64,000 nt of DNA. Origin: an uncultured Gammaproteobacteria bacterium. GTDB taxonomy: Bacteria; Pseudomonadota; Gammaproteobacteria; GCA-001735895. Made by a program: the position numbers and the translations under genes. The notes beneath the pieces were generated by a model that searched no databases, was not told where the DNA came from, and worked only from the letters and a program-made list of their open reading frames with translations. The DNA lies in the NCBI GenBank assembly GCA_964196115.1, contig CAXMRQ010000181.1:223-64222 (forward strand). Direction: 5' to 3'. Below are positions 1-49,845 of the stretch, piece after piece; the first letter of the stretch is position 1, and every line of letters begins with the position of its first letter.

Positions 1-1
1 A

Positions 2-1123
2 CCCTATTACCTGATCAACAATATCGATGAAGCTGGCAGTTATTTGCGCGACCCCTCAGAGCATTACAGCAAGCAAAATATTGAGCTGATCCAGCAACGA
101 GTCGACAAAGTTGATTCGAATGCCAAGAAGGTAACGCTCGCCGATGGCAGCACGAGAGATTACGACAAGCTGTTACTGGCCACTGGGTCTAGACCGATAA
201 GTCCTCCGATTCCAGGGCTGGATTTACCGCAGGTGCATTCCTGCTGGACGCTGGAAGACGCACGCCACATTATTGAGCTGGCGCAACCAGGTGCCAATGT
301 CGTGTTAATCGGTGCCGGGTTTATTGGCTGTATCATTCTTGAGGCATTGGTGAAGCGCGGTATTAATTTATCGGTAGTGGAAACCGGAAATCGCATGGTG
401 CCGCGCATGCTTAACGAAAAAGCAGGCGGTCTGCTAGAAAAATGGTGTGTCAATAAGGGCATTGACGTGCATACCTCCTGTAGTGTCGAGTCGGTTACAG
501 CAGCTAATAAAGATCAGGTAGAAGTCAGTTTGAGCGATGGTAGTAAGTTGCCAGCGGCTTTGGTTATTACCGCAACTGGGGTGAAGCCGAATACAGAAAT
601 GCTCGAAGGAACTGATATCAAGCTTGAAGTCGGCGTATTGGTGAATAATTCGATGCAAACCAATAATAGTGATATCTATGCTGCGGGTGACGTGGCGCAG
701 GGTATGGATTTTTCTACCGGTAACTTTGAAGTTCAGGCAATACAACCGACCGCTACAGACCATGGTCGCGTTGCGGCATTGAATATGGCAGGCAAGGCAA
801 CCGAGAATCATGGCAGTCTGAATATGAACGTCCTCGATACCGTAGGATTAATATCCTGCTCGTTTGGCCTTTGGATGGGTGCTGATGGGGGTGAACAGGC
901 TGAGTTATATAATCCAGATGAGTTTCAGTATATCAATCTACAGTTCGACGGTGATTGTCTGGTCGGTGCGAGTACGGTCGGTAAGACCCAGCATGTCGGT
1001 GTTTTGCGCGGTTTGATCGAGTCCAGGGTTAATCTTGGCCCCTGGAAACAACGTTTGATGAGCGATCCGACTGCTATTATGGAAGCTTACGTGGCTTGTA
1101 CTCAGGAATTAGGTTACGTTTGA
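2..1123 (+). CDS. FAD/NAD(P)-dependent pyridine nucleotide-disulfide family oxidoreductase (5' end truncated by window edge)
   Basis: The reading frame is open from position 2. It carries an NAD-binding Rossmann motif (VVLIGAGFIGCIILEAL), and a second, C-terminal dinucleotide-binding motif (DIYAAGDVAQG) typical of rubredoxin/nitrite-reductase-like flavoprotein reductases. Confidence 0.7.
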   Translation, partial: PYYLINNIDEAGSYLRDPSEHYSKQNIELIQQRVDKVDSNAKKVTLADGSTRDYDKLLLATGSRPISPPIPGLDLPQVHSCWTLEDARHIIELAQPGANVVLIGAGFIGCIILEALVKRGINLSVVETGNRMVPRMLNEKAGGLLEKWCVNKGIDVHTSCSVESVTAANKDQVEVSLSDGSKLPAALVITATGVKPNTEMLEGTDIKLEVGVLVNNSMQTNNSDIYAAGDVAQGMDFSTGNFEVQAIQPTATDHGRVAALNMAGKATENHGSLNMNVLDTVGLISCSFGLWMGADGGEQAELYNPDEFQYINLQFDGDCLVGASTVGKTQHVGVLRGLIESRVNLGPWKQRLMSDPTAIMEAYVACTQELGYV

Positions 1124-1163
1124 CGGACAGTTCGTGAAATAGCGATTTGTTCGGGATTCTCAG

Positions 1164-1415
1164 ATGAAACTGTATATCGAGTTCTATGCCTCGTTAATGA
1201 AATACCTGCCGCCCGGCAAATCCAGGTTTCGTCGAGAAATCAGCGTAGAAGATTCGCCGATCTTGAATCGCCTCATCGAGCAATATCATATTTCCCCACA
1301 GGAGGCTCATCTTGTGCTGGTTAATGGAAGATTTGTTAATCCTGAAGATCGGGATCACAGAGTTTTGCAGCAAGGTGACGTTATTTCTATCTGGCCGCCG
1401 GTAGCAGGGGGTTAA
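1164..1415 (+). CDS. MoaD/ThiS-family ubiquitin-like sulfur carrier protein with C-terminal Gly-Gly
   Basis: An 83-aa protein ending ...VISIWPPVAGG*. Its size and GG tail, and its position directly upstream of an E1-like enzyme, fit a sulfur carrier. Confidence 0.7.
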   Translation: MKLYIEFYASLMKYLPPGKSRFRREISVEDSPILNRLIEQYHISPQEAHLVLVNGRFVNPEDRDHRVLQQGDVISIWPPVAGG

Positions 1416-1419
1416 GTCT

Positions 1420-1737
1420 ATGCCTGCCGGTGCAGGGATAATCGAATACGAAATGGGCTACGGGGCCGATGAATTCGGCAATGTTTTGCAAGGCACGTTC
1501 AGTGGAGAAAAATCTCCTTATCGCTACGAGACGCTTGCCAGGCATCACTGGCGTATGAGTCAGCTCGACAGCGAATTGAATATAGAAATTCAGGTTGAGG
1601 AAATGCCGCCCCGCAGGCTCGGTTTATTTGCATTACCGGTACTGCAGGTTAAGTTCTATCTGCATCAAACTACCCTTGATGATCAGACCGGGTTTTTCGA
1701 CCGGTTTCATAAATATTTTCATAAAGGAGGCGGTTAG
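1420..1737 (+). CDS. hypothetical protein (105 aa, ends GGG) between the sulfur carrier and the E1-like gene
   Basis: The ORF is tightly packed, starting 4 nt after the MoaD-like stop and ending exactly at the TTG start of the next gene. An AAGGAGG RBS lies inside its 3' end. I recognise no family. Confidence 0.4.
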   Translation: MPAGAGIIEYEMGYGADEFGNVLQGTFSGEKSPYRYETLARHHWRMSQLDSELNIEIQVEEMPPRRLGLFALPVLQVKFYLHQTTLDDQTGFFDRFHKYFHKGGG

Positions 1738-2478
1738 TTGGACGCCGAGCAAGAGGATCGCTATAGCCGTCAAATTCGATTAGCTCAGATAGGCGAACCC
1801 GGTCAGCAAAAAATTCTCGATTCGAGTGCGCTGATAGTCGGTATGGGTGGTCTCGGATCGCCTGCGGCAATGTATCTGGCAGCGGCAGGCATCGGCAAGC
1901 TGGTAATCACCGATTACGATATGGTCGAAGTTTCTAACTTGCAACGCCAGATCATTCATAATACCGCCAGAATTGGTGATAACAAGGTGGACTCGGCGAA
2001 GCAGAGTATCGAGGCGATCAACCCTGATTGTCAGGTAGAGACCATCAACTATCAGCTCGACGAAGAAGAATTAAAATCAGTCATCCAGCGTGTCGACATC
2101 GTGCTTGATTGCTGTGACAACTTTCCCACTCGTTTCGAAGTTAATCGATATTGCGTGGAAACCGAAACACCACTGGTTTCAGGCGCAGCGATCCGGCTCG
2201 AGGGCCAGATCATGAATTTCCAGCCGAAAGTTAATGGGCCGTGTTATCAATGTCTGTATACGCAAGTTTACGAAAATGCCGAGACCTGTGAAATGGAGGG
2301 TGTACTTGGCCCGGTAGTCGGCGTCATCGGCACCATGCAGGCGCTACAGACACTGTTGATTTTGACCGGTCAGGGGGAACCATTAATCGGTAAATTACTG
2401 CTACTGGATGCCGCCAGCATGGAGTGGCAGGGGGTAAAATTACCCAGGAATCCGGCTTGCCCGGTGTGTGGGGCGTAG
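1738..2478 (+). CDS. MoeB/ThiF/HesA-family E1-like adenylyltransferase (short form, no rhodanese domain)
   Basis: Carries RYSRQI..., the nucleotide-binding loop GMGGLGSPAAMYLAAAGIG and paired CxxC motifs (CYQC...CPVC). It uses a TTG start preceded by AAGGAGG 8-9 nt upstream. Confidence 0.8.
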   Translation: MDAEQEDRYSRQIRLAQIGEPGQQKILDSSALIVGMGGLGSPAAMYLAAAGIGKLVITDYDMVEVSNLQRQIIHNTARIGDNKVDSAKQSIEAINPDCQVETINYQLDEEELKSVIQRVDIVLDCCDNFPTRFEVNRYCVETETPLVSGAAIRLEGQIMNFQPKVNGPCYQCLYTQVYENAETCEMEGVLGPVVGVIGTMQALQTLLILTGQGEPLIGKLLLLDAASMEWQGVKLPRNPACPVCGA

Positions 2479-2518
2479 AGGCAGGGGTGTTCCATCATCC
2501 CAAGTCCGATAGTTTATT

Positions 2519-2575
2519 GGTCGAATGAATTCGACCCTACCTGGAAGTACCCTGTAGGGCCGAATTTATTCGGCC
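2519..2575. repeat. REP-like palindromic element (family gtagggYcgaat..attcgRccctac), copy 1
   Basis: Shows two hairpins: ggtcgaatgaattcgacc and gtagggccgaatttattcggcc. The same element recurs at 7914-7969 and 49744-49810. Confidence 0.7.
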
Positions 2576-2581
2576 TGCTAA

Positions 2582-3405
2582 CTAAATAAACCGCAGTGAA
2601 AAATCGATTGCTCGTAAGTGCTTGGTGAGGGCACCGATAGAGATAAAATCGACGCCGGTTTCGGCAATCTGTAGTAGGGTCTCGTCGGTAATATTACCGG
2701 AAGCGTCGAGTTGAATACGATTATTGTTCAATGCAACGGCTTGCTTCATATCCTCTATATCGAAATTATCCAGTAAAGCACGATCTACTTTGACGTCTAG
2801 CGCCTGCTGTAACTGATCCAGATCCTCGACTTCGACTTCCAGTAAACAATCAGGTCGTAACGCCCGACCACGTTCGACTGCTGCTCTAATGCTACCGCTC
2901 GCAGCAAGATGATTTTCCTTGATTAGATAAGCGTCAAAAGCCCGAGTCGATGATTCATGCCACCCCCGCAATGAACCGCATATTTCTGCGCGCGTCGAAG
3001 ATGCGGAATGGTCTTACGGGTATCGAGGATACGGCAGGCTGTCTGTTTAATTCGGTCGGCATAGAGGCAGGTGGTGGTCGCGGTGCCCGACAGGGTTTGC
3101 AGGAAATTGAGTGCGGTGCGTTCAGCGGTGAGCATCGCCCTCGCGCTGCCGGAAATCTCACACAGTATGCTATTGGCGACAACTCGATCACCATCTGTAG
3201 CATTCCATTTAATCTGAATAGAGCGGTCGCATTGTTTGAAGGCTTCGTTAAACCAGGCGGCACCGCCTAGCACGGCATCCTCGCGCACCAGCAATTGCAT
3301 ATGGAGTTGCGCGGATTCGCCAATCAGCATGGCGCCGAGATACTTTCCGCTCTGAGAGTGCACAACCGGCACGGCTTCGCCGATGTAGTCGCGCATTGCT
3401 TCCAT
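2582..3405 (-). pseudogene. nadC: nadC pseudogene fused in-frame to a duplicated 3' fragment of the ClC channel gene
   Basis: Two overlapping minus-strand ORFs (2923-3405 and 2582-2971) together are collinear with the intact nadC at 7976-8803. There is a frameshift near 2925-2970. The N-terminus MEAMRDYIGEAVPVVHSQSGKYLGAM is the C-terminal CBS-region tail of the ClC gene. Relative to copy 2, about 145 bp are deleted at a catggcgc microhomology. Confidence 0.75.
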
Positions 3406-3478
3406 TGCACTCCAAAGACTCGGCGTTTGGTCGAATATGAGACCGTGATTCCAAGCAGAGTGAAGAGTAGCAAATCGG

Positions 3479-4117
3479 CTAATCGTCCTGGCCTTCGCGG
3501 TGACGTGACATGAAACGGGCTAATTCAGATTCCGTCGGATACAGCCCTGTGAAATTTTCTACATAGGCTGGCATGCGTTTCAGGCGTTCCGATTTCGGCT
3601 CGTCCACCATCATCGATATATAACCCACCTGCGTGTAATACACGGTACGCGCACGCACATCAACCTGTTCAACACTGAACCCGAAACGCGCAAACATGGC
3701 ACGAATCGCATCAATTCTTTCCTCGTCGGTTAGTTCAAGAATTTGCTTTAATTTCGCGGAGTGATGCGCCCAGTTGCGAATCGCAAAGTCCATGCGTGCG
3801 TCAAACAGCTGTGGATCTATCCAGCAATCGAACAGGTTCAGCACAGCCTCGCTAATGGTTTCTGCATACAACTCGGTCTGCGCGATCAAATTACCGGTAT
3901 TGTGCGCCTTCCAGCGTTCGATCAATGCGTCGAGCAGCGTATTACGGTCGTCGAAATGCCAGTAAAAGCTGGTGCGCGACAGTTTCAACGCGGCGGCCAG
4001 GGACATTACCTTAACCGACTCGACGCCGGACTCGATCAACATCTTGTGCGCCGCATCAAGCCATAATTCTTCCGACCCTCGCCAGCCGCTCTTTTTAATT
4101 AGGTTTCCGTTTTGCAT
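3479..4117 (-). CDS. TetR/AcrR-family transcriptional regulator
   Basis: Has an N-terminal HTH (WLDAAHKMLIESGVESVKVMSLAAALKLSRTSFYWHF). It is transcribed divergently from the mttB-like gene and shares a palindromic operator-like site with it. Confidence 0.8.
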   Translation of the reverse strand: MQNGNLIKKSGWRGSEELWLDAAHKMLIESGVESVKVMSLAAALKLSRTSFYWHFDDRNTLLDALIERWKAHNTGNLIAQTELYAETISEAVLNLFDCWIDPQLFDARMDFAIRNWAHHSAKLKQILELTDEERIDAIRAMFARFGFSVEQVDVRARTVYYTQVGYISMMVDEPKSERLKRMPAYVENFTGLYPTESELARFMSRHREGQDD

Positions 4118-4167
4118 GGGCTAATAATCAAAGGCTTATTAATGTATAAACAGTAATGTCTATTATA

Positions 4168-4183
4168 TTGACATTAATGTCAA
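4168..4183. promoter_or_regulatory. perfect 16-bp palindrome TTGACATTAATGTCAA in the divergent TetR/MttB intergenic region (candidate TetR operator)
   Basis: The sequence read directly is its own reverse complement. It sits between divergent genes, and a half-site-like TAATGTC also occurs at 4154-4160. Confidence 0.5.
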
Positions 4184-4219
4184 GTTTGCTATTGTTCACG
4201 CTATTCTGAGCCGGATAAA

Positions 4220-5818
4220 GTGAAAGCGATCATGACGCAGCAAGGGTTATCCAACAACCGACAGTCTGGCAAACGACGCAGCAACAGCCGTGCCAAGCTT
4301 CGAACCAAGCGTCTGGGTGAATCGGCACAGAACCGTCATCTCCAGGTAGCCTATATCACCCGCAAAATTCCCACCTATGACTTGCTGGATGAAGAAAGTC
4401 TGGTGAAAATTGAACAGGCCACCGACACCATTCTTGCAGAGATCGGCATCGAGTTTCGCGACGATGCGGAGACTGTCGATCTATTCCGTGAAGCCGGGGG
4501 ACAAGTCACTAAGATTAGCGATATAGCCTCGAACATTAAATTTGAGCCGGGTATGATCGGTGAGATATTAAAAACCGCACCGCAACGATTTACCCAGCAT
4601 GCTCGCAACCCCGCAAGGTCGGTGCAGATCGGTGGCGACGCCATGGTGTTTGCTCCTGCTTATGGATCGCCATTTGTTATGGATGTGGATAAGGGTCGGC
4701 GTTATGGAACCCTGTCGGACTTTGAAAATTTCGTCAAACTCGCGCAGTCGAGCCCCTGGTTACACCATTCGGGGGGGACCATCTGCGAACCAACCGATAT
4801 TCCAGTCAACAAACGACATCTGGATATGGTGTATGCCCATATGCGCTACTCTGATCGTGCTTTCCTGGGTTCAATCACCTCGCCGGAACGCGCCGCCGAC
4901 AGTATCGAGATGTGCCGCATTCTGTTCGGTACAGATTTCGTTGCAGATAACTGTGTCATCATGGGTAACTTTAATTCCACCTCGCCACTGATCTGGGACG
5001 GCGTTTCCACCAGGGGTATCCGCAACTATGCCGAGGCCGGTCAGGGCTCGATCCTGTTGCCATTTCTGCTCGGGGGCGCGGTGTCGCCGGTTACGATACC
5101 CGGTGCAGTTGCACAAGGTATGGCTGAATCCCTGGTCGGATGCGCGCTAACCCAGCTAGTGCGTCCTGGCGCTCCGGCTATTCTGGCATCTTTCATTTCA
5201 TCGATTTCGTTACGCTCCGGCAGCCCGACTTTCGGTACCCCCGAACCGGCACTAGGTAGTCTGGTCATCGGACAACTGGCGCGACGCCTGAAACTACCAT
5301 TGCGTTGCGCGGGTAATTTTTCTACCTCAAAGCTACCCGATGCCCAGGCGATGACGCAAAGCGTTATGTCGATGATGTCCGCAGTACAATGCGGTGCGAA
5401 CTACATTCTGCATGCAGCCGGCTTCCTTGATGGCCTGTTGTCGATGTCATATGAAAAATTTATGCTCGATAGTGATCTTTGCGGCGCGCTGCACAGCTAT
5501 CTCAACGGCTTAGAGATCAATGACGACACACTGGGTATCGACGCCCTGCGCGAAGGCGGGCCGGGTGTGCACATGTTTGGTACCGCGCATACATTGGCGC
5601 ATTACGAGAATGCCTATTGGGACAGTGGTATCAATGACGACCAACCTTACGAAAGCTGGTCGGAACAGGGCAGCGAGGACTCCATGCAACGCGCCAACCG
5701 CAAATGGAAGAAAACCCTCGAAGACTACCAGGTGCCACCGATGGACGAGGCCACCAACGAGGCATTGAAAGACTTTATTGCGCGGCGTAAGGCGTCCATG
5801 GACGACGCCTGGTATTAA
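4220..5818 (+). CDS. MttB-superfamily (trimethylamine methyltransferase-like, non-pyrrolysine) methyltransferase
   Basis: A 532-aa protein with the overall MttB fold signature (TIM-barrel regions ...GGDAMVFAPAYGSPFVMD..., ...ILHAAGFLDGLLSMSYEKFMLDSDL...). It has no in-frame amber codon. The start may be GTG at 4220 or ATG at 4232. Confidence 0.75.
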   Translation: MKAIMTQQGLSNNRQSGKRRSNSRAKLRTKRLGESAQNRHLQVAYITRKIPTYDLLDEESLVKIEQATDTILAEIGIEFRDDAETVDLFREAGGQVTKISDIASNIKFEPGMIGEILKTAPQRFTQHARNPARSVQIGGDAMVFAPAYGSPFVMDVDKGRRYGTLSDFENFVKLAQSSPWLHHSGGTICEPTDIPVNKRHLDMVYAHMRYSDRAFLGSITSPERAADSIEMCRILFGTDFVADNCVIMGNFNSTSPLIWDGVSTRGIRNYAEAGQGSILLPFLLGGAVSPVTIPGAVAQGMAESLVGCALTQLVRPGAPAILASFISSISLRSGSPTFGTPEPALGSLVIGQLARRLKLPLRCAGNFSTSKLPDAQAMTQSVMSMMSAVQCGANYILHAAGFLDGLLSMSYEKFMLDSDLCGALHSYLNGLEINDDTLGIDALREGGPGVHMFGTAHTLAHYENAYWDSGINDDQPYESWSEQGSEDSMQRANRKWKKTLEDYQVPPMDEATNEALKDFIARRKASMDDAWY

Positions 5819-5867
5819 CAGAAACCTCCCTTAGATATATAAATCACCCGTCACGAGGTCGAAAAAA

Positions 5868-7904
5868 ATGACGAATGACCCACTGCTGCAGCCTTATCAG
5901 CTCAAACACCTGACGCTGAAAAATCGTATTATGACTACCAGTCATGAACCTGCCTACCCTGAGGATGGCATGCCGAAGGAGCGCTATCGGGCGTACCACG
6001 AGGAGCGTGCGAAGGCTGGCCTGGGTTTGACCATGACCGCCGGTTCAGCCGCCGTATCGAAGGACAGTCCCCCGGTTTTTAACAACATCCTTGCCTACAA
6101 GGACGAAGTGGTGCCGTGGATGCGTCAGGTGGTTGACAGCTGCCATGAGCACGGATGCGCGGTGATGATTCAGCTCACCCATCTAGGTCGTCGCACCGGC
6201 TGGAACAAGGGGGACTGGTTACCTGCTGTCTCGCCCTCGCACAACCGCGAAGCGGCGCACCGTGCGTTCCCGAAAAAACTCGAGGACTGGGATATTGTTC
6301 GCATCATCTCTGACTATGCCGATGCCGCAGAACGCATGCAGGCCGCCGGTCTGGACGGTATCGAACTGCAGGCCTATGGTCACCTGATGGATCAGTTCTG
6401 GTCGCCATTAACCAATACCCTGGATGGACCTTACGGTGGCCCGCTTGAAAACCGCCTGCGTTTTTCGATGGAGGTTCTGCAGGCGATTCGAAAACGTGTT
6501 GGTGAAGAATTCATCGTCGGTATTCGTTACACCGCCGACGAAGTCGCCGAGGGTGGTATTTCCGCCGACGAAGGTATCGAGATATCAAAACGTTTAAAAG
6601 ACACGGGCCTGGTCGATTTCCTCAACGTCATCCGCGGTCATATCGACACTGACCCCGGGCTTACCGATGTCATCCCGGTGCAAGGTATGCGAAGCGCGCC
6701 GTTCCTGGATTTTGCCGGCGAGGTGCGCAAGACCACCGGTATGCCCACTTTCTACGCGGCACGCATCCCTGATGTTGCTACCGCGCGCTACGCGGTCGGG
6801 GCGGGTCTTATCGACATGGTTGGTATGACACGTGCACATATGGCTGACCCGCATATCGTGCGAAAAATCGTTGAAGGCCGGGAGGGCGATATCCGCCCCT
6901 GTGTTGGTGCGACCTACTGTCTCGATCGTATTTATCAGGGCGGCGATGCGCTTTGTATGCACAATGCCGCCACAGGCCGCGAACTCACCATGCCGCATGA
7001 CATCCCAGTCGCAGATAATCGTAAAAAGGTGGTGATTGTCGGTGCCGGCCCGGCCGGGCTCGAAGCGGCGCGTATTGCCGCCGAACGTGGCCACTCTGTT
7101 ATTGTTTTCGAAGCCACCACTGACCCGGGTGGACAAATACGCCTGGCTATGCAAAGCGAGCGTCGGCGTGAAATGATCTCGATTATCGACTGGCGTATGT
7201 CGCAGTGCCACAAACGCGATGTAGAATTCCACTTTAACACTTTGGCTGAAGTCGAAGACATCCTCGCTAGTAATCCCGATGTCGTAATTATCGCCACTGG
7301 TGGACTGCCGCATACCGAGGTTCTGCAAGCCGGCAACGAGCTGGTTGTATCGAGTTGGGATATCATTTCTCGCAGTGTAAAACCGGGTCAGGACGTGCTG
7401 GTTTACGATGATGCTGGCGACCATGCCGGCCTGCAAGCCGCCGAAATAATCGCGGCAACCGGCGCCAGTGTTGAAATTATGACCCCGGATCGGAGCTTTG
7501 CGCCCGAGGTTATGGCGATGAATCTGGTCCCCTATATGCGTAGCATGCAGGATAAAAACGTGACCTTTACCGTCACCTATCGCCTAAAGCGCGTAGAAAA
7601 AGATGGCGATAGTCTGAACGCGATTATTGGCAGCGATTACAGCGACCTTATAAAACAACGCAGCTTCGACCAGATTATCGTCAATCACGGTACGATACCG
7701 ATGGACGAGCTTTATTTCGAACTGAAACCACAATCTTCCAACCTGGGTGCCGTGGACCAGGATGCACTAATCGCTGGTAAGCCGCAGTCGCTGAATACTA
7801 ATCCGCACGGCAATTTCCAGCTATTTCGCATCGGTGATGCCGTTTCTGCACGTAATACGCATGCAGCGATATACGATGCATTACGACTGATGAAGGATAT
7901 TTGA
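5868..7904 (+). CDS. trimethylamine dehydrogenase / DgcA / 2,4-dienoyl-CoA reductase-family flavoprotein
   Basis: The N-terminal Old Yellow Enzyme-like FMN domain carries a cysteine-rich stretch (RPCVGATYCLDRIYQGGDALC) matching the [4Fe-4S] motif of TMADH-type enzymes. It also has a Rossmann motif VVIVGAGPAGLEAA and a second, C-terminal dinucleotide motif. Confidence 0.75.
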   Translation: MTNDPLLQPYQLKHLTLKNRIMTTSHEPAYPEDGMPKERYRAYHEERAKAGLGLTMTAGSAAVSKDSPPVFNNILAYKDEVVPWMRQVVDSCHEHGCAVMIQLTHLGRRTGWNKGDWLPAVSPSHNREAAHRAFPKKLEDWDIVRIISDYADAAERMQAAGLDGIELQAYGHLMDQFWSPLTNTLDGPYGGPLENRLRFSMEVLQAIRKRVGEEFIVGIRYTADEVAEGGISADEGIEISKRLKDTGLVDFLNVIRGHIDTDPGLTDVIPVQGMRSAPFLDFAGEVRKTTGMPTFYAARIPDVATARYAVGAGLIDMVGMTRAHMADPHIVRKIVEGREGDIRPCVGATYCLDRIYQGGDALCMHNAATGRELTMPHDIPVADNRKKVVIVGAGPAGLEAARIAAERGHSVIVFEATTDPGGQIRLAMQSERRREMISIIDWRMSQCHKRDVEFHFNTLAEVEDILASNPDVVIIATGGLPHTEVLQAGNELVVSSWDIISRSVKPGQDVLVYDDAGDHAGLQAAEIIAATGASVEIMTPDRSFAPEVMAMNLVPYMRSMQDKNVTFTVTYRLKRVEKDGDSLNAIIGSDYSDLIKQRSFDQIIVNHGTIPMDELYFELKPQSSNLGAVDQDALIAGKPQSLNTNPHGNFQLFRIGDAVSARNTHAAIYDALRLMKDI

Positions 7905-7913
7905 GACGGTTTT

Positions 7914-7969
7914 GTAGGGTCGAATTCATTCGACCGGTTTAATGAAGTGCAGGCCGAAATTATTCGGCC
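7914..7969. repeat. REP-like palindromic element, copy 2 (terminator-like, downstream of nadC)
   Basis: Same family as 2519-2575, with hairpins ggtcgaattcattcgacc and ggccgaaattattcggcc. Confidence 0.7.
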
Positions 7970-7975
7970 TGCTAA

Positions 7976-8803
7976 CTAAGCGAAGCGCAAAGAAAAATCG
8001 ATTGCCCGCAGGTGTTTGGTGAGGGCGCCAATTGAAATAAAATCGACACCGGTTTCGGCAATCTGTAGTAGGGTTTCGCAGGTAATGTTGCCTGAGGCCT
8101 CTAGCTGGATGCGGTTGTGGTTTAATGCGACGGCCTGTTTCATCGCTTCGATGCTGAAATTGTCCAATAATGCCCGGTCAACCCTGGCCTCAATGGCCTG
8201 CTGTAACTGATCCAGATCCTCAACTTCGACTTCGAGCAGACAGTCGGGTCGTAACGCCCGGCCACGTTCGACTGCCGCTTTAATGCTACCGCTCGCTGCG
8301 AGATGATTTTCCTTGATCAGGTAAGCGTCAAAAAGTCCGATTCGATGATTCATGCCGCCCCCGCACTGAACCGCATATTTCTGCGCGCGTCGAAGATGTG
8401 GAATGGTCTTACGGGTATCCAGGATTCGACAGGCTGTGTGTTTAATGCGGTCGGCATAGAGACTGGTGGTGGTCGCGGTGCCCGACAGGGTTTGCAGAAA
8501 ATTGAGCGCGGTGCGTTCGGCGGTGAGCATCGCCCGCGCATTACCTGAAATTTCACACAGTATGCTATTGGCGACGACCCGATCACCATCTACAGCATTC
8601 CATTTAATCTGAATGGAATGGTCGCATTGTTTGAAGGCTTCGTTAAACCAGGCGGTACCGCATAGCACGACGTCCTCGCGCACCAGCAATTGCATATGGA
8701 GTTGCGCGGATTCGCCAATCAGCATGGCGCTGATATCGCCGCTACCAACGTCTTCCGCAAGCGCCAGTTTTATGTCTTCGGGTATGGCCTGTTGCAAGTC
8801 CAT
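7976..8803 (-). CDS. nadC: nicotinate-nucleotide pyrophosphorylase (quinolinate phosphoribosyltransferase)
   Basis: A 275-aa protein with the typical NadC motifs (TAERTALNFLQTLSG, ILDTRKTIPHLR, NHR) at full length. Confidence 0.9.
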   Translation of the reverse strand: MDLQQAIPEDIKLALAEDVGSGDISAMLIGESAQLHMQLLVREDVVLCGTAWFNEAFKQCDHSIQIKWNAVDGDRVVANSILCEISGNARAMLTAERTALNFLQTLSGTATTTSLYADRIKHTACRILDTRKTIPHLRRAQKYAVQCGGGMNHRIGLFDAYLIKENHLAASGSIKAAVERGRALRPDCLLEVEVEDLDQLQQAIEARVDRALLDNFSIEAMKQAVALNHNRIQLEASGNITCETLLQIAETGVDFISIGALTKHLRAIDFSLRFA

Positions 8804-8811
8804 CGGTTATT

Positions 8812-10548
8812 TCAGGCCTCGTGTTCTTCGCGTCGTAAGTCATGTAGAGAATCGAGATAACTACCGATTACGCTACTCTCCGGCATGGCGCCAAGATACT
8901 TTCCAGTTTGGGAGTGCACCACTGGCACGGCTTCGCCGATGTAGTCACGCATTGCTTCCATTGCACCCCACAGGCTGGTGGTTTCGTCGAATATCAGGCT
9001 TTGATGTAATGCCAGCGAATCGATACTGGCAGTCGGCCCGCAATCGCTCAACTGATCCTGATGCAGCAACCCCAGGTAGCGCTCGTCACTATCGACAATA
9101 ACCGCTGTCTGAAGTGAAATCGAGCGTAGCTGCTCGATTGCTGATTCTCCAGGCTGTTTGCTATGCAGCTTAGGAAGTAGCTGGGTTAAATGATCTACCA
9201 CGCGTTGATGCTGTAGATAGGCCCGATCACGGCCGTGCGATAAATCAACCCCGCGCTCGGCCAGTTGTCTATCGAATAGAGATCGCCCGTACCAGTGATG
9301 CGCAGTCAGATTGGAGAAGGCAACAGTCACCATCGCGGCAATAGTAATCTCGTAACTGTGAGTCAATTCAAAAATGATCAACAACGCTGTCATCGGCGCA
9401 CCGATAACCGGGCTGGCGACAGCGACCATGCCGCATATCGCATAAACGGATAGTTCGGAATAATGGCTAAGCAGCAGCTCGGGAATCGTAATCGCAAAAA
9501 GCGCACCGAACAGGACGCCGACCAGCAATGCCGGGAATATGACCCCGCCGGCAAATCCGAAGCCGATGCATAAAACCGTGACTAGCAATTTAGCAACCAG
9601 AATCGTCAACAGTTCTTCTGCACTGAATAATCCCGGGATGCTGGCCATGTTCATTAAATCTACCCCGGCACCGAGCACATCGGGAATTTGCAATGCCACC
9701 AGACCGAGCAGAAAACCGGCAATCATTGGCTTACAGGCTGCAGGGACTGAAATTTTATGTGCAATATCGCGCGATACTTTTAATAATTTCATGAACACGA
9801 CCGCGAGTACCCCGCAGGCGATTCCTTCCAGCACAAATAGCAAAAATTCAGACGCCTGGTACATGTGCTGGAATTCAAATAGAAATAACGGTGGGTGTTC
9901 GAACACGACATTCGCAACAACAAAGCCACAGGCTGAGGCGACTGTTACGGCAGTAAAAATTCGTAGCGAATAGTGGCGTAGAATCACTTCATGGGTGAAG
10001 ATTAATCCCGCAATCGGTGCATTAAACGCGGTCGAAATAGCCGCTGCAACACCGCAGGCAATTGCCGTACTACTGATATCGCGTACCCCGAGCCGCAGTC
10101 GGCTTGCAAGTTGGCCGACCAGCGAGCCTAAATAAACCAGCGGGCCATACTGGCCTACCGATGCGCCGCAACCCAGAGACAGGATAGAGGCTAATGTGGA
10201 AAAGGCACCCGATACCGGGCTGGGTAGTTTTTCACGCAATTGCACTGCGTAAATGGTATCGGGTGGCCCCAGTGGTCTTCCGCTTTTGACGCCGTAGCGC
10301 AATATCAGGCCGACGATTAATCCGCCGATGGTAGGAACCAGAATGGTAATCACTGTCAGAGTGCCGGGTTGCACACCGGTTCTACTTTCCGTACTGATGT
10401 AAAGCGCGCGATTGAGCCAGTGAACCAGGTCGACAAAACCGATAGTCGCAAATGAAGTGATTGTGCCGACCACCAAACCGATTAAAGCGATCACCAGCAT
10501 GCGATAAATGGTCGTATGGGCCTTAATTTTTTCCTGGTCTTGGCGCAT
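8812..10548 (-). CDS. ClC-family voltage-gated chloride channel / H+-Cl- antiporter with C-terminal CBS region
   Basis: Multi-pass membrane protein with ClC selectivity motifs (GCGASVGQYGP as a GREGP-like motif, GGVIFPALLVG as GxFxP). It starts with ATG at 10548. Confidence 0.8.
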   Translation of the reverse strand: MRQDQEKIKAHTTIYRMLVIALIGLVVGTITSFATIGFVDLVHWLNRALYISTESRTGVQPGTLTVITILVPTIGGLIVGLILRYGVKSGRPLGPPDTIYAVQLREKLPSPVSGAFSTLASILSLGCGASVGQYGPLVYLGSLVGQLASRLRLGVRDISSTAIACGVAAAISTAFNAPIAGLIFTHEVILRHYSLRIFTAVTVASACGFVVANVVFEHPPLFLFEFQHMYQASEFLLFVLEGIACGVLAVVFMKLLKVSRDIAHKISVPAACKPMIAGFLLGLVALQIPDVLGAGVDLMNMASIPGLFSAEELLTILVAKLLVTVLCIGFGFAGGVIFPALLVGVLFGALFAITIPELLLSHYSELSVYAICGMVAVASPVIGAPMTALLIIFELTHSYEITIAAMVTVAFSNLTAHHWYGRSLFDRQLAERGVDLSHGRDRAYLQHQRVVDHLTQLLPKLHSKQPGESAIEQLRSISLQTAVIVDSDERYLGLLHQDQLSDCGPTASIDSLALHQSLIFDETTSLWGAMEAMRDYIGEAVPVVHSQTGKYLGAMPESSVIGSYLDSLHDLRREEHEA

Positions 10549-17010: not shown

Positions 17011-17967
17011 CTATTCCGCAAATTCGCCGGGCTGCAAATCGGTGGCCTCGTTAATAAATTCGTCGATTGAAATTGTTGGCGACAAATGCCAGTTCAACGG
17101 GCTCAGGCTTTTCTGATAATTCGCCGCCGAACTGAAATCTTCAACAAACGAATTAATGGCGGGGTTTTGCATAATGGCCAGTACCGCAAAAGGACTGCTG
17201 ATCAGGATGGCTAGCAGGATACTTTTTCTATGTGCCAGGTGGGTGACATGAATCAGGTAAAAACTGACTGCAGCCGGAATGAATAATAGATACCATCCGA
17301 GGTTGAAAATCGAAATTGGCAGGTTGGAGGAAAACAGGTATGTCAGTTCGACTACCAGGGCCGATAGAATTTGGTAATTCAGATAGATCAGTGCAACCGA
17401 AATAATCAGAGGCTTGATTTCCCAGCGATTTACTAACAGGCGTTCCAGTATCGATAGCGTAGCTACGAACGCGGCAATGCTAAATACTGACTCTCTGAAT
17501 ACATATTTGATTAAATCATCCCATTTCAGGGTATTGTACGAGGTGAAGTAAAATTCCAGGGCCCCTGCCATAAAACACGAGGTAAGTAGCATCGCTGCCC
17601 ATCCCCAGTGGCCAAAAAGACGCTGCAAACGACCATGGCTGGTGAGCGATTTTGTTGCTGGGACGCGGTGACTACGGGATAGAATACGGGCTGAAATTCG
17701 TCCCAGGCTAAATTCTATCGGAAGCGTTTTAGATGTTATTATGTCTTCCTGCGTGTTATTAAACCTTGCGGGATTCACGCTTGCCAGGTTTTGTAATTCG
17801 ACCTTACCCTCGTCGTCGAGCAAGATCTTTAGGTGATAGGGTTCGACGGTGGGGTCGGATAGGATGATATCGTTGTCGAGTGCTCGACCGATGCGAAGCT
17901 CAGACTTATCTAGCGCATGGTAGCGGTGCAGACCCCTTGTTTTAATCTCGAGAATCAGCCCGTCCAC
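17011..17967 (-). CDS. FHA-domain protein with C-terminal multi-pass membrane region
   Basis: The N-terminal FHA fold signature is ...LRIGRALDNDIILSDPTVEPYHLKI.... It is followed by about five hydrophobic helices. The gene overlaps the 3' end of the upstream protease gene by 13 nt. Confidence 0.6.
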   Translation of the reverse strand: MDGLILEIKTRGLHRYHALDKSELRIGRALDNDIILSDPTVEPYHLKILLDDEGKVELQNLASVNPARFNNTQEDIITSKTLPIEFSLGRISARILSRSHRVPATKSLTSHGRLQRLFGHWGWAAMLLTSCFMAGALEFYFTSYNTLKWDDLIKYVFRESVFSIAAFVATLSILERLLVNRWEIKPLIISVALIYLNYQILSALVVELTYLFSSNLPISIFNLGWYLLFIPAAVSFYLIHVTHLAHRKSILLAILISSPFAVLAIMQNPAINSFVEDFSSAANYQKSLSPLNWHLSPTISIDEFINEATDLQPGEFAE

Positions 17968-19220: not shown

Positions 19221-19257
19221 ACGTGAACTTCTGGATGGCTTCTGTGCAAAGTGAAGG

Positions 19258-25200: not shown

Positions 25201-25496
25201 CGGCCACAAATATGGCTGGTTGAGATTTTCATCACTATATTCTCGGAGCTACAAAGGTACAATGCGTTACCAATATTTTGGAAAGTTACCGACCGACACA
25301 TTTCGGTCCAAATTACTAATTATTAACAATTCAGTTTCGTTACTGCCCGCTGTGATAATTCATATGAGGCTGTCGCAGCCTGAAGCTACCCTCTAACAGA
25401 ACAATGACAGGTATTGCCGTGTCGCCCCTGTCTCGGGATAGTGCACGCCTACTAACTGCTGCAACATTACATTGGTGTACTATATTAGATGAGCAA

Positions 25497-26600: not shown

Positions 26601-26617
26601 AGCTTAGAGGCTCACCC

Positions 26618-27436: not shown

Positions 27437-28077
27437 GCCTCGAACAACTTTCTGCAGAATCCGACGAAGAGGGTCTTGATTCCTTTTACATAAGCTTTGG
27501 TGACTTAATGGTCATCCTATGTGTGTTTCTCGTGATGCTACTGACCATGAGTAAAATCGATATAGGCTCTTTCGAGAAAATTAAAAGCGTGATGACCGGC
27601 AGTACCGATAATACGCTGGTCGAGCTGTCGGAAACGCTCCGCGAAATTATCGAAACTGCACCGGGCATTCCTGGCGCGTCGGTTCAACTGGCTAAAGACG
27701 GCGTACGAGTGGATCTTGATACCGGCGTACTGTTTGCGCCGGGTAAGGCCGCGATCAAAGGCGAAGCACTGCATTCCATTGAGCCGCTTTTGAGAGAGAT
27801 TCTGAAGACTGAATATCTAATCGATATTGAAGGGCATACCGATGATGTGCCGTTTTATCGACTCACCGACGGTGAAGTCGAAACCAACTGGAGCCTGAGC
27901 GGCAAGCGCGCCAGTAGCGTCATATTGCATTTGCGAAATAGTGGCTTTTCAGCCAAACGGCTGCGCGCTGTGGGTTATGCGCACACGCGGGCGGTAGTCG
28001 ACATCAGAGGTAAGTCCGGCGTTGAGCTGGAAAATGCCAGAGCCCGAAATCGGCGAGTTTCGCTGCTAATACGATAA
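27433..28077 (+). CDS. MotB/OmpA-family protein (single TM with conserved Asp, peptidoglycan-binding C-terminus)
   Basis: The TM helix SFGDLMVILCVFLVM has an Asp at the MotB D32-equivalent position. The OmpA-like motif is IEGHTDDVPF...SGKRASSVILHL...NRRVSLLI. Confidence 0.8.
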   Translation: MSLEQLSAESDEEGLDSFYISFGDLMVILCVFLVMLLTMSKIDIGSFEKIKSVMTGSTDNTLVELSETLREIIETAPGIPGASVQLAKDGVRVDLDTGVLFAPGKAAIKGEALHSIEPLLREILKTEYLIDIEGHTDDVPFYRLTDGEVETNWSLSGKRASSVILHLRNSGFSAKRLRAVGYAHTRAVVDIRGKSGVELENARARNRRVSLLIR

Positions 28078-28096
28078 TAAGCGGTTAAGAATAAAA

Positions 28097-49810: not shown

Positions 49811-49845
49811 TTTGACCCTACAGCCGGAATGACCAATAAATCAGG

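What the first reader, a model, noticed from the sequence alone, without database searches (positions are those of the whole stretch)
3479..7904. Non-Pyl MttB-family methyltransferase paired with a TMADH/DgcA-like FMN-FeS flavoprotein and no corrinoid protein
Characterised MttB-superfamily enzymes (MttB, MtgB, MtpB, MtcB) hand methyl groups to a cognate corrinoid protein. Here the only neighbours are a TetR regulator and a trimethylamine-dehydrogenase-type flavoprotein with a 4Fe-4S motif and an NAD/FAD domain. This pairing suggests an aerobic demethylation route for a quaternary amine or methylamine (glycine betaine, proline betaine, carnitine, TMA and the like) whose methyl acceptor and electron flow are not obvious. 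This is a common open question for MttB homologs in aerobic marine bacteria.
Basis: partly seen in the sequence, partly recalled or inferred. Interest (0 to 1): 0.6.

Follow-up and report, generated by a model that had tools for sequence, protein, structure and literature searches.

The report
Proline-betaine demethylation cassette (TetR–MttB–StcD)
This is a widely shared, horizontally spread three-gene cassette that most likely removes the two N-methyl groups from the osmolyte proline betaine, the first with a vitamin-B12-type methyltransferase and the second with a flavoprotein; the missing B12-carrier gene next door is normal for such bacteria, not a mystery.

Summary
The three genes are present as described: TetR (3479-4117, -), a non-pyrrolysine MttB-family protein (4220/4232-5818, +) and a 678-aa FMN/Fe-S/dinucleotide flavoprotein (5868-7904, +). 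No corrinoid protein is encoded anywhere in the 64 kb.

The flavoprotein is not a generic TMADH/DgcA relative. It is a full-length, gap-free 75% ortholog of Sinorhizobium meliloti StcD, the N-methylproline demethylase of stachydrine (proline betaine) catabolism. The TetR is 53% identical to the one divergent from stcD in Rhizobium etli. StcD orthologs keep only three of the four TMADH cluster cysteines.

TetR/LysR–MttB–StcD is conserved in Alpha-, Beta- and Gammaproteobacteria and one Acidimicrobiales MAG. StcD is in the locus in 55 of 68 testable loci. A T(T/C)GACA-N4-TGTC(A/G)A operator overlaps the promoter.

Elsewhere StcD partners the Rieske proline-betaine demethylase, so the MttB protein probably replaces it.

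Work from 2025 shows that aerobic marine bacteria run MttB-family enzymes with unlinked MtgC/MtgD. One orthologous locus sits beside MtgC, DUF1638, MTHFR and FTHFS genes.

Verdict: a new, uncharacterised variant of known pathways, of moderate interest. Substrate and corrinoid dependence are inferred, not shown.

The parts
3479..4117 (-). TetR-family repressor, divergent from the operon
   Evidence: PF00440 TetR_N, E 1e-9. It is 53% identical over 200 aa to the TetR divergent from stcD on R. etli CIAT 652 plasmid pC. A divergent ortholog (52-76% identity) occurs in 35 of 76 orthologous MttB loci.
4168..4183 (.). Candidate TetR operator, perfect palindrome TTGACA-TTAA-TGTCAA
   Evidence: It is the only match in the 64-kb window to TTGACA-N4-TGTCAA with up to 1 mismatch (0.18 expected from shuffles). 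The same T(T/C)GACA-N4-TGTC(A/G)A palindrome lies just upstream of the MttB start in about 27 of the 80 orthologous loci, most of them with a divergent TetR. Binding has not been tested.
4168..4195 (+). Promoter-like site for the MttB-StcD operon (-35 TTGACA, 16-nt spacer, TG-extended -10 TATTGT)
   Evidence: It is the best sigma-70-like match in 2400-8100, with 10 of 12 positions plus TG. The -35 hexamer is the left arm of the palindrome, so repressor binding would occlude it (inference).
4220..5818 (+). Non-pyrrolysine MttB-superfamily methyltransferase (532 aa from GTG 4220, or 528 aa from ATG 4232); predicted proline betaine (or close analog):corrinoid methyltransferase
   Evidence: PF06253, E 8.6e-215. 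The closest solved structure is 4YYC, 'putative trimethylamine methyltransferase' (548 bits); D. hafniense MtgB (2QNE/9YCE) scores about 360 bits. Phe367 occupies the Pyl position. Of the MtgB glycine-betaine contacts, Y97, R312 and H348 are kept (Y148, R362, H398) and F356 is Leu406. Both start variants occur among members of its 90%-identity cluster.
5868..7904 (+). StcD ortholog: FMN (OYE-fold) + 3-Cys Fe-S site + one dinucleotide-binding domain; predicted N-methyl-L-proline demethylase
   Evidence: It is 75% identical over 678 of 678 aa, with no gaps, to S. meliloti 1021 pSymB CAC49410.1, which UniRef names 'Probable N-methylproline demethylase'. It is 76% identical to R. etli 'stcD'. Pfam finds PF00724 + PF07992. 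The Cys motif is C345, C351, C363 with Ala348. There is a single GxGxxG, at 392-397. It starts 49 nt after the MttB stop with a GAGG ribosome-binding site and no predicted terminator between the genes.
7914..7969 (.). REP-like palindrome doublet between the convergent StcD and nadC genes (probable transcript end)
   Evidence: GGTCGAATTCATTCGACC lies at 7918-7935 and GGCCGAAATTATTCGGCC at 7952-7969. The same doublet occurs at 2519/2558 and 49759/49800. The pattern gives 14 strand-matches against 0.42 expected.
2558..3449 (-). Left boundary: degenerate second copy of nadC fused to a fragment of the ClC-channel gene's 3' end (direct repeat of 7952-9005)
   Evidence: 2558-3341 matches 7952-8736 at 87% identity with a 1-nt deletion. 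3327-3449 matches 8883-9005 at 85%. TIGR00078 nadC hits only profile positions 19-149 in ORF 2923-3405. The ORF's first 26 residues match the ClC C-terminus.
7976..8803 (-). Right boundary: intact nadC (quinolinate phosphoribosyltransferase)
   Evidence: TIGR00078 scores 298.8 bits against a cutoff of 198.4, with the full profile matched.

Best explanation
This is a TetR-repressed two-gene operon for stepwise N-demethylation of L-proline betaine (stachydrine) or a very close cyclic analog such as hydroxyproline betaine.

Step 1 (inferred). The MttB-family enzyme transfers one N-methyl group from the quaternary amine to the Co(I) of a corrinoid protein encoded elsewhere in the genome (MtgC type). 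A pterin-binding MtgD-type methyltransferase then passes the methyl to tetrahydrofolate. The product is N-methyl-L-proline, and the methyl group is conserved as CH3-THF. No O2 is needed for this step. The MttB enzyme therefore occupies the position held by the Rieske monooxygenase Stc2/HpbBC in the classical pathway.

Step 2 (by orthology). StcD oxidises N-methyl-L-proline at its FMN to an iminium that hydrolyses to L-proline and formaldehyde. Electrons leave through the 3-Cys Fe-S site to an external acceptor, probably ETF.

Regulation (inferred). TetR binds the TTGACA-N4-TGTCAA palindrome over the -35 box and is released by the betaine or by N-methylproline.

Origin. The cassette is mobile between bacterial classes. 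Here it sits between two diverged copies of nadC.
For: StcD orthology. The flavoprotein is 75% identical over its full length, without gaps, to the S. meliloti protein that UniRef names 'Probable N-methylproline demethylase'. PMC12239276 describes stcD, on pSymB, as an N-methylproline demethylase of stachydrine catabolism. The TetR is 53% identical to the TetR divergent from stcD in R. etli. That locus also holds a glycine betaine/proline ABC transporter, a P5C-reductase-like gene, etfAB and glutathione-dependent formaldehyde detoxification genes.

Conserved linkage. Of 68 orthologous MttB loci (63-83% identity) with enough downstream DNA, 45 have the StcD ortholog immediately downstream and 55 have it in the locus. 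A divergent TetR occurs in 35 and a LysR in 19 of 76.

Complementary partners. On a Roseivivax plasmid, StcD is followed by a Rieske alpha subunit and its reductase, with no MttB. In Roseinatronobacter the arrangement is LysR-MttB-StcD. In Rhodobacter sp. CZR27 the MttB ortholog lies beside LysR, the Rieske pair and a ProX-type ABC transporter; these look like the hpbR and hpbB/C genes of PMC3950512, though their orthology was not tested. Motiliproteus has both the Rieske pair and MttB-StcD. This parallels the MtgBCD/GbcAB duality for glycine betaine.

Other neighbours. An MR/MLE-superfamily gene lies between MttB and StcD in 6 loci and directly after MttB in 2 more that lack a detected StcD ortholog. 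A P5C-reductase-like gene lies downstream in 14 loci, and an Ldh_2 gene in 3.

Corrinoid route. MttB-family proteins of aerobic marine bacteria use unlinked MtgC/MtgD. In the Robiginitomaculum MAG locus L024, the cassette lies 5-9 kb from genes for MTHFR, DUF1638, a B12-binding_2 + B12-binding protein and formate-THF ligase.

Substrate is not glycine betaine by default. One of the two aromatic glycine-betaine contacts of MtgB (F356) is Leu here.

Operon and operator.
Against: No enzyme of this MttB clade has been assayed, and the substrate is inferred from gene neighbourhood only.

The window encodes no corrinoid protein, MtgD, ETF, betaine transporter or PutA. Whether the genome has them is unknown.

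I could not obtain E. limosum MtpB, R. pomeroyi MtgB1/2 or P. aeruginosa DgcA sequences, so clade placement against characterised enzymes is incomplete.

Three of the four MtgB glycine-betaine contacts are retained, so glycine betaine is not excluded on residues alone.

The MR/MLE neighbour is not close to solved HpbD-type epimerases.

The StcD reaction itself rests on genetics and annotation in rhizobia; I found no in-vitro enzymology.

Thirteen of the 68 loci lack StcD nearby.
Confidence: 0.6

Rival explanations
1. Glycine betaine route. The MttB protein is an MtgB (glycine betaine -> dimethylglycine), and the flavoprotein acts as a DgcA-like dimethylglycine demethylase (dimethylglycine -> sarcosine).
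For: MtgB is the only function shown so far for PF06253 proteins in aerobic marine bacteria. Three of the four glycine-betaine contact residues are conserved. Mausz et al. note that later demethylation steps are often encoded near mtgBCD. DgcA has the same overall enzyme architecture (my own knowledge; not compared here).
Against: The flavoprotein is 75% identical to StcD, whose locus is tied to stachydrine and N-methylproline, and it shares StcD's TetR. No DgcB-type Fe-S partner or etf gene is adjacent; the neighbours are nadC genes. F356 is replaced by Leu. StcD orthologs pair with the Rieske demethylase genes of proline-betaine clusters. The MtgB paralogs other than MtgB1 are described as uncharacterised.
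Confidence: 0.12
2. Same two-step logic but a different cyclic or related betaine. Candidates are trans-4-hydroxyproline betaine (betonicine), pipecolate betaine (homostachydrine), or another N,N-dimethyl amino acid whose mono-methyl product StcD accepts.
For: The P. denitrificans Hpb enzymes act on both proline betaine and hydroxyproline betaine (PMC3950512). Variable neighbours suggest metabolism of proline-like imino acids beyond proline itself: an MR/MLE gene, a P5C-reductase-like gene, Ldh_2, a D-Ser-dehydratase-like gene, and a second 4-Cys flavoprotein paralog.
Against: None is decisive; this is a substrate-range variant of the best explanation. High identity to StcD favours N-methylproline as at least one substrate.
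Confidence: 0.15
3. This MttB clade does not use a corrinoid protein at all. It might methylate THF directly, use free cobalamin, or work in a complex with the flavoprotein. The pair would then be a self-contained new demethylase.
For: No corrinoid gene lies in the 64 kb, nor within 10 kb in 79 of 80 orthologous loci. There is a conserved ~45-aa basic N-terminal extension that is absent from D. hafniense MtgB. Nothing has been assayed.
Against: Every characterised superfamily member methylates a corrinoid. Unlinked mtgC is genetically required for the proteobacterial MtgB route. L024 places the cassette beside MtgC-like, DUF1638, MTHFR and FTHFS genes. StcD works without any MttB partner in rhizobia and Roseivivax, so an obligate complex is unlikely.
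Confidence: 0.06
4. Trimethylamine metabolism: a true TMA methyltransferase plus a trimethylamine/dimethylamine dehydrogenase.
For: Family names only (PF06253 'MTTB'; TMADH is among the solved relatives).
Against: There is no pyrrolysine codon, and Phe occupies the Pyl position. TIGR02369 scores 241 against a cutoff of 525. TMADH scores only 143 bits versus 75% identity to StcD. One cluster Cys is missing.
Confidence: 0.01

Closest known systems
StcD (S. meliloti) within the stc stachydrine catabolic system (Stc2/3/4 Rieske demethylase + StcD)
   Same: The flavoprotein is a 75%-identical, co-linear ortholog of StcD with the same length and the same 3-Cys motif. The TetR is orthologous to the one beside stcD in R. 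etli. The two-step logic of betaine -> N-methylproline -> proline is the same.
   Different: The first step is not encoded by a Rieske oxygenase and reductase but by an MttB-family methyltransferase in the same operon. No transporter, ETF or formaldehyde-detoxification genes are linked here.
MtgBCD(E), the cobalamin-dependent glycine betaine demethylase / split methionine synthase of marine Alpha- and Gammaproteobacteria (Mausz et al. 2025, PMC12478193)
   Same: A PF06253 non-Pyl protein in a proteobacterium with no adjacent corrinoid protein. The expected partners are unlinked MtgC/MtgD, and the methyl group goes to THF. One orthologous locus (L024) is next to MtgC-like, DUF1638, MTHFR and FTHFS genes.
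   Different: This is a different paralog clade, tightly linked to StcD rather than to glycine-betaine genes. One of the MtgB aromatic glycine-betaine contacts is lost (F356L). The substrate is predicted to be proline betaine. The MtgB2-4 paralogs are explicitly uncharacterised.
MtpB of Eubacterium limosum (proline betaine:corrinoid methyltransferase; Picking et al. 2019, cited in PMC13080624)
   Same: The predicted reaction is the same: proline betaine + Co(I) -> N-methylproline + CH3-Co(III), by an MttB-superfamily TIM-barrel enzyme.
   Different: MtpB belongs to an anaerobic acetogen and works with a dedicated corrinoid protein and methyl-THF transferase. N-methylproline is the end product there (my knowledge). 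Here a flavoprotein removes the second methyl.
Hpb pathway of Paracoccus denitrificans / Rhodobacter sphaeroides (HpbD racemase, HpbB/C Rieske demethylases, HpbA N-methylproline demethylase; PMC3950512)
   Same: The catabolic route to proline is the same. In Rhodobacter sp. CZR27, MttB orthologs lie beside a LysR regulator, a Rieske pair and a ProX-type transporter that resemble hpbR and hpbB/C.
   Different: In P. denitrificans the Rieske enzymes are genetically sufficient and necessary, and no methyltransferase is mentioned in that paper. Orthology of HpbA to this flavoprotein was not testable here.
Trimethylamine dehydrogenase / histamine dehydrogenase / DgcA / FadH superfamily (OYE FMN domain + 4Fe-4S + ADP/FAD domain)
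   Same: The domain order is the same. The Fe-S motif is in the homologous position.
   Different: Similarity is only 143-216 bits. The second cluster Cys is Ala. There is a single GxGxxG, which resembles the electron-exporting amine dehydrogenases more than the NADPH-dependent reductases (inference).

Membership tests
MttB superfamily (PF06253) | Full-length match to the MTTB TIM-barrel profile | tested here: met
   E 8.6e-215, profile positions 3-499 of 500. Solved relatives are 4YYC, 2QNE, 9YCE and 7XCL.
Pyrrolysine-containing trimethylamine methyltransferase MttB | In-frame UAG (pyrrolysine) at the active-site position; score above the TIGR02369 cutoff | tested here: not met
   The ORF is uninterrupted. 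Phe367 aligns with the Pyl 'X' of 7XCL. TIGR02369 scores 241 bits against 525.
MtgB (glycine betaine:corrinoid methyltransferase) | Glycine-betaine contacts Y97, R312, H348, F356 of D. hafniense MtgB (PMC13080624) | tested here: inconclusive
   Y148, R362 and H398 are conserved; F356 is Leu406 and the preceding Tyr is Gly. The paper states that R312 and H348 are shared with enzymes acting on other betaines, and that the aromatic pair is not.
Corrinoid-dependent methyltransferase system (MtxB + MtxC + MtxA/MtgD) | Presence of a cognate corrinoid protein and a methyl-corrinoid:THF methyltransferase in the genome | not testable with these tools
   They are absent from the 64-kb window and from the 4.1 kb upstream in L089. 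They are present next to the orthologous cassette in L024.
StcD (N-methylproline demethylase) | Orthology to S. meliloti StcD over the full length | tested here: met
   75% identity, 678 of 678 aa, 0 gaps. The subject protein is named 'Probable N-methylproline demethylase' by UniRef. It is the only megablast match to the S. fredii stcD-homolog DNA on pSymB.
StcD (N-methylproline demethylase) | Catalytic activity on N-methyl-L-proline | not testable with these tools
   Requires an enzyme assay. It is inferred from orthology and from rhizobial genetics cited in PMC12239276.
Trimethylamine/histamine dehydrogenase type enzymes | Four-cysteine 4Fe-4S motif C-x2-C-x2-C-x11-12-C | tested here: not met
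   The motif is C345-x5-C351-x11-C363, with Ala348 in place of TMADH Cys348. The three retained Cys are invariant in 122 close homologs. Ala at the second position was seen in all four StcD orthologs inspected.
Trimethylamine/histamine dehydrogenase type enzymes | Covalent 6-S-cysteinyl FMN (Cys30 in TMADH) | not tested
   The N-terminal alignment to TMADH was not obtained (one search returned only OYE alignments). From my recollection of TMADH, the aligned residue in 'TTSHEPAY' would be Glu, but this is unverified.
DgcAB dimethylglycine demethylase | Adjacent DgcB Fe-S partner (and usually etfAB) | tested here: not met
   The genes flanking the flavoprotein are MttB and nadC. There is no Fe-S/CCG-domain or ETF gene in the window. 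Sequence comparison with DgcA itself was not possible.
TetR-regulated divergent operon | Palindromic operator in the divergent intergenic region, conserved in orthologous loci | tested here: met
   TTGACATTAATGTCAA at 4168-4183 is unique in the window, with 0.18 expected. The same motif recurs at the same position in about 27 loci. Binding itself has not been tested.

The most novel reading that the evidence does not exclude
This MttB clade needs no dedicated corrinoid protein. It would pass the methyl group directly to tetrahydrofolate or to free or loosely bound cobalamin, perhaps using its conserved basic N-terminal extension. Together with the 3-Cys StcD, it would form a self-contained, horizontally mobile two-enzyme demethylase. 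That would be a new catalytic mode for the MttB superfamily.
Probability: 0.06. Interest if true: 0.8.

Novelty: new variant of a known kind. Interest (0 to 1): 0.4.

Why it matters
If the prediction holds, it assigns a substrate (proline betaine) to one of the many uncharacterised MttB/MtgB paralogs of marine and soil Proteobacteria. It also describes a hybrid pathway in which a cobalamin-dependent, O2-independent methyl transfer replaces the Rieske monooxygenase step of stachydrine catabolism.

Such a route would save one methyl group as CH3-THF instead of releasing formaldehyde. It would tie the use of a second abundant algal and plant osmolyte to vitamin B12 and cobalt supply, as recently shown for glycine betaine. 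It would also allow the first step to run at low oxygen.

The conserved operator and the compact three-gene cassette make the hypothesis directly testable in cultivable carriers. The cassette's 80-84% identity between Alpha- and Gammaproteobacteria marks it as a mobile trait.

The StcD lineage's loss of one cluster cysteine is a small, unexplored point of enzymology.

Tried and rejected
- Looking for the source genome, in order to search it for mtgC/mtgD. Exact-protein look-ups for StcD, its cluster twin and a gene at the far end of the window found nothing. Only a 15-kb sister contig was recovered (L089, GCA_964195535.1).
- Taxonomy through MetRS. This gave only 'MAG: Gammaproteobacteria bacterium', with a best identity of 93%.
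- Reading Phillips 1998 (stcD) and Ticak 2014 (MtgB). Neither is held. No supplements are held for the mBio 2014 paper.
- Checking the covalent-FMN cysteine by PDB alignment of the N-terminus. Only OYE alignments were printed.
- Testing whether the MR/MLE gene between MttB and StcD in Kiloniella-type loci is an HpbD epimerase. Its best solved relatives are uncharacterised 'isomerases' at about 150 bits, so it is only suggestive.
- S. meliloti pSymB. The MttB ortholog there (64% identity; possibly the protein crystallised as 4YYC, which I did not verify) is not near stcD. The two ORFs just upstream that I scanned are signalling proteins.
- TMA/TMADH reading. Rejected on the Pyl position, the TIGR02369 score and StcD orthology.
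- Chance juxtaposition. Rejected by conservation in 55 of 68 loci.
- The flavoprotein as a reductive activase for the methyltransferase. Rejected because StcD occurs and functions without any MttB neighbour in rhizobia and Roseivivax.
- Structure prediction. Not run, because the tool returns no coordinates with which to test for a fourth cluster ligand.

Full report
**1. What is in the sequence**

The finding's interval holds three genes.
- A TetR-family regulator lies on the minus strand at 3479-4117 (PF00440).
- A 532-aa MttB-superfamily protein lies on the plus strand at 4220-5818 (PF06253, E 8.6e-215). An alternative ATG start is at 4232.
- A 678-aa protein lies 49 nt downstream at 5868-7904. 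It has an N-terminal Old-Yellow-Enzyme FMN domain and a C-terminal Pyr_redox_2 domain.

No terminator-like site separates the last two genes, and the second has a GAGG ribosome-binding site. They therefore form an operon divergent from TetR.

The MttB ORF has no internal stop. The residue aligned with pyrrolysine of the solved TMA methyltransferase 7XCL is Phe367. The Pyl-MttB equivalog model scores far below its cutoff, 241 against 525 bits.

Pfam scans of essentially every ORF of 150 aa or more in the 64 kb found none of the following: a B12-binding protein, a pterin-binding methyltransferase, ETF, a betaine transporter, or PutA.

**2. Two corrections to the description**

First, the Fe-S motif is incomplete. 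Where TMADH reads C-I-G-C-N-V-C...C, this protein reads C345-V-G-A348-T-Y-C351...C363. The three retained cysteines are invariant in 122 close homologs. The S. meliloti, R. etli and Roseivivax orthologs show the same Ala. A roughly 33%-identical paralog found in related loci keeps all four cysteines. The lineage thus has a 3-Cys site. It could hold a 3Fe-4S cluster or a 4Fe-4S cluster with a non-Cys ligand; this is not resolved.

Second, among solved structures TMADH is not the nearest relative. 2-Naphthoyl-CoA reductase scores 216 bits and FadH 194 bits, against 143 bits for TMADH. Only one GxGxxG motif is present, at 392-397.

**3. Identity of the flavoprotein**

Homologs at 80-98% identity are abundant in uncultured Gammaproteobacteria, Kiloniella (Alphaproteobacteria) and Motiliproteus. 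JGI labels some of them 'N-methyl-L-proline demethylase'.

Against plasmids and chromids, the protein is 76% identical to a gene that R. etli CIAT 652 annotates as stcD.

I located the single copy on S. meliloti 1021 pSymB. The window protein is 75% identical to it over all 678 residues with no gap. An exact look-up shows that this S. meliloti protein (CAC49410.1) is UniRef's 'Probable N-methylproline demethylase'. PMC12239276 states that stcD on pSymB encodes the N-methylproline demethylase of stachydrine catabolism.

The window's TetR is 53% identical to the TetR divergent from stcD in R. etli. That locus also carries a glycine betaine/proline ABC transporter, a P5C-reductase-like gene, etfAB and glutathione-dependent formaldehyde detoxification genes. 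These neighbours suggest the electron acceptor (ETF) and the C1 product (formaldehyde).

**4. Is the MttB–StcD pairing real?**

A scan of one genome per species returned more than 588 relatives, and I kept the best 80 loci at 63-83% identity.

Of 68 loci with at least 2.5 kb downstream, the StcD ortholog (60-84% identity) starts within 400 nt of the MttB stop in 45 and is in the locus in 55. Of 76 loci with upstream sequence, 35 have the divergent TetR and 19 a divergent LysR.

Carriers include Rhodobacterales, Hyphomicrobiales, Kiloniella, Granulosicoccus, Motiliproteus, Amphritea, Rhodoferax and other Betaproteobacteria, and one Acidimicrobiales MAG. Identity of 81-84% between this gammaproteobacterial pair and Kiloniella's indicates horizontal spread.

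A palindrome T(T/C)GACA-N4-TGTC(A/G)A occurs exactly once in the window, at 4168-4183, against 0.18 expected. It lies at the same position in about 27 orthologous loci, most of them with a divergent TetR. It overlaps the -35 hexamer of the best promoter-like site, 4168-4195.

**5. What the partner genes say about substrate**

StcD orthologs have two alternative partners.
- On a Roseivivax plasmid, StcD is followed by a Rieske oxygenase alpha subunit and its reductase, which is the classical Stc2/HpbBC-type proline betaine demethylase arrangement. No MttB is present.
- In Roseinatronobacter the arrangement is LysR-MttB-StcD.
- In Rhodobacter sp. CZR27 the MttB ortholog sits beside LysR, the Rieske pair, GntR and ProX-type transporter genes. 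These resemble the hpbR and hpbB/C genes described for proline betaine catabolism in PMC3950512, though I did not test their orthology.
- Motiliproteus has the Rieske pair and TetR-MttB-StcD side by side.

Additional neighbours point to proline-type imino-acid chemistry:
- an MR/MLE-superfamily gene between MttB and StcD in 6 loci, and directly after MttB in 2 more that lack a detected StcD ortholog;
- a P5C-reductase-like gene in 14 loci, also beside stcD in R. etli;
- an Ldh_2-family gene in 3 loci;
- a second, 4-Cys flavoprotein paralog in about 20 loci.

The MR/MLE protein is not close to solved HpbD epimerases, so that clue is weak.

D. hafniense MtgB binds glycine betaine through Y97, R312, H348 and F356 (PMC13080624). 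The window protein keeps Y148, R362 and H398, but has Leu406 for F356. The paper notes that R312 and H348 are shared by enzymes for other acidic betaines, while the aromatic pair is not. This fits an acidic betaine other than glycine betaine, but it is not decisive.

**6. The methyl acceptor**

Recent work largely resolves it. In R. pomeroyi, PF06253 proteins (SPO2108, SPO2134) act with an unlinked cobalamin-binding MtgC (SPO2160) and a pterin-binding MtgD (SPO1863). These two also serve as the core of a split methionine synthase, and mtgC is required for growth on glycine betaine. Genomes hold up to seven PF06253 paralogs, which the authors propose act on other methylated compounds (PMC12478193).

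In P. inhibens, mtgB1 is the glycine betaine enzyme and mtgB2-4 are 'related uncharacterized methyltransferases'. A Rieske GbcAB route takes over under cobalt limitation (bioRxiv 10.64898/2025.12.19.695462).

Among my 80 loci, only one has a corrinoid gene within 10 kb, and it is informative. In the Robiginitomaculum MAG (L024), the MttB–MR/MLE–StcD cassette lies a few kb from genes for MTHFR, DUF1638, a B12-binding_2 + B12-binding protein and formate-THF ligase, and it has formate dehydrogenase genes downstream. That set corresponds to part of the MtgC/reactivation/THF-C1-oxidation proteins induced in R. pomeroyi.

**7. Most likely mechanism**

Shown by sequence:
- operon structure and the divergent TetR with a conserved palindrome;
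- non-Pyl MttB-family membership;
- StcD orthology and the 3-Cys site;
- conserved linkage of the two enzymes.

Inferred:
- (a) The MttB-family enzyme demethylates L-proline betaine, or a close cyclic analog, onto an unlinked MtgC-type corrinoid protein. MtgD then passes the methyl to THF.
- (b) StcD oxidises the resulting N-methylproline to proline plus formaldehyde, exporting electrons through its Fe-S site, probably to ETF.
- (c) TetR is released by the substrate or the intermediate.
- (d) Functionally, the methyltransferase stands in for the O2-dependent Rieske demethylase. This parallels the MtgBCD/GbcAB duality for glycine betaine.

I put about 0.6 on this overall. About 0.8 applies to the StcD step, 0.65 to corrinoid dependence, and 0.5 to proline betaine being the principal substrate.

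**8. Rivals**

- Glycine betaine -> dimethylglycine -> sarcosine (MtgB + DgcA-like), 0.12. StcD orthology, the shared TetR, the missing DgcB/ETF partners and F356L argue against it.
- Another cyclic betaine with the same logic, 0.15. This is not really distinguishable here.
- A corrinoid-independent mechanism, 0.06. It is unsupported, but the sequence does not exclude it.
- TMA/TMADH, 0.01. It is refuted by the Pyl position and model scores.

**9. Genomic setting**

The cassette (3450-7951) lies between two direct, diverged copies of the nadC region. Positions 2558-3341 match 7952-8736 at 87% identity with a 1-nt deletion in an A-run. Positions 3327-3449 match a piece of the ClC-channel gene's 3' end (8883-9005) at 85%.

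The upstream copy is a 5'-truncated nadC fused in frame to the ClC fragment. In the 99.5%-identical sister contig, that copy aligns to the intact nadC without a gap and is called as a single 249-aa gene. The frameshift may therefore be strain-specific or a sequencing error.

Flanking direct repeats of chromosomal DNA at 85-87% identity, a slightly higher GC content (0.52-0.545 against about 0.49), and cross-class protein identities above 80% together fit acquisition by recombination with DNA from a relative. This is inference.

REP-like palindrome doublets mark both repeat ends.

The host is an uncultured gammaproteobacterium. It carries Rnf, molybdenum/tungsten cofactor genes and, just upstream of the window, a tungsten-type aldehyde:ferredoxin oxidoreductase. 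'Aerobic' is therefore unproven.

**10. Novelty and score**

What appears to be undescribed in the literature I could search is two things: the conserved, mobile TetR/LysR–MttB–StcD cassette, and the implied hybrid cobalamin-plus-flavoprotein route for proline betaine. That library lacks most subscription-journal papers.

I rate this a new variant of a known kind, with interest 0.4. It is a clear, testable functional prediction for an uncharacterised MtgB paralog clade, not a surprise to specialists.

Noticed in passing
window 2558-3449 versus 7952-9005: This is a second, degenerate copy of nadC. It is 87% identical at nucleotide level, 5'-truncated, and carries a 1-nt deletion in an A-run near 2940. 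It is fused in frame to an 85%-identical fragment of the ClC-channel gene's 3' end. The junction falls at a ~15-nt microhomology (GCATGGCGCyGAkAT). The two copies bracket the TetR-MttB-StcD cassette as direct repeats. In the sister contig L089, the upstream copy is called as an uninterrupted 249-aa gene.
   Followed up: partly
window 2519-2575, 7914-7969, 49759-49817: REP-like palindrome doublets of the form GG(T/C)CGAAT-NN-ATTCG(A/G)CC, some with a GTAG/CTAC head. The two members of each doublet are about 40 nt apart. They lie between convergent genes. The pattern gives 14 strand-matches against 0.42 expected.
   Followed up: partly
window 25404-32419 (GC 0.44-0.46): A low-GC block holds an unannotatable 398-aa protein, a MotA/ExbB-like protein (272 aa), a MotB/OmpA-like protein with weak ZorB hits (E 5e-14), and a 1440-aa AAA_11/AAA_12 helicase-like protein. 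The last one hits PADLOC candidates PDC-S37 and the Mokosh MkoA/MkoC models. This may be a Zorya-like or novel MotAB-coupled defence island.
   Followed up: partly
related loci, e.g. L023:13599-16309, L016:13903-16929, L015, L020, L026, L031: In about 20 orthologous loci, StcD is followed by a second OYE/Fe-S flavoprotein paralog. It is about 33% identical to StcD and 60-80% identical among its own copies, and it keeps the full 4-Cys motif. A P5C-reductase-like gene often precedes it, and an Ldh_2 gene sometimes follows. Its function is unknown, and it is absent from this window.
   Followed up: partly
L011:11561-12745 and the equivalent gene in L013, L022, L024, L028, L039, L053, L061: An MR/MLE enolase-superfamily gene follows MttB directly. 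It lies between MttB and StcD in the six of these loci that have a StcD ortholog. Its nearest solved structures are uncharacterised 'isomerases' (4DYE, 2OQH) rather than HpbD. It may be a betaine or N-methylproline racemase of a new subgroup.
   Followed up: partly
window 1-2478 and L089:1-6611: Just upstream of the cassette lies a cluster of a ferredoxin, a tungsten-type aldehyde:ferredoxin oxidoreductase (AFOR_N/C), a Pyr_redox_2 protein (best NCBIfam hit the phenylglyoxylate dehydrogenase epsilon subunit, below cutoff), a ThiS/MoaD-like protein, a 105-aa unknown and MoeB. Further Mo/W cofactor genes lie at 36-46 kb (MobA, MobB, an ABC transporter, MoaB-like, MoaA, FdhD). This suggests a partly anaerobic lifestyle.
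   Followed up: no
window 4220-4360 (MttB residues 1-45): The MttB protein has an Arg/Lys-rich N-terminal extension of about 45 residues. It is shared with the solved 4YYC protein and absent from D. hafniense MtgB. Its role is unknown.
   Followed up: no
window 17011-19322: Two overlapping genes encode an FHA/YscD-like domain protein and a trypsin-like peptidase. They lie between the rnf operon and metG.
   Followed up: no
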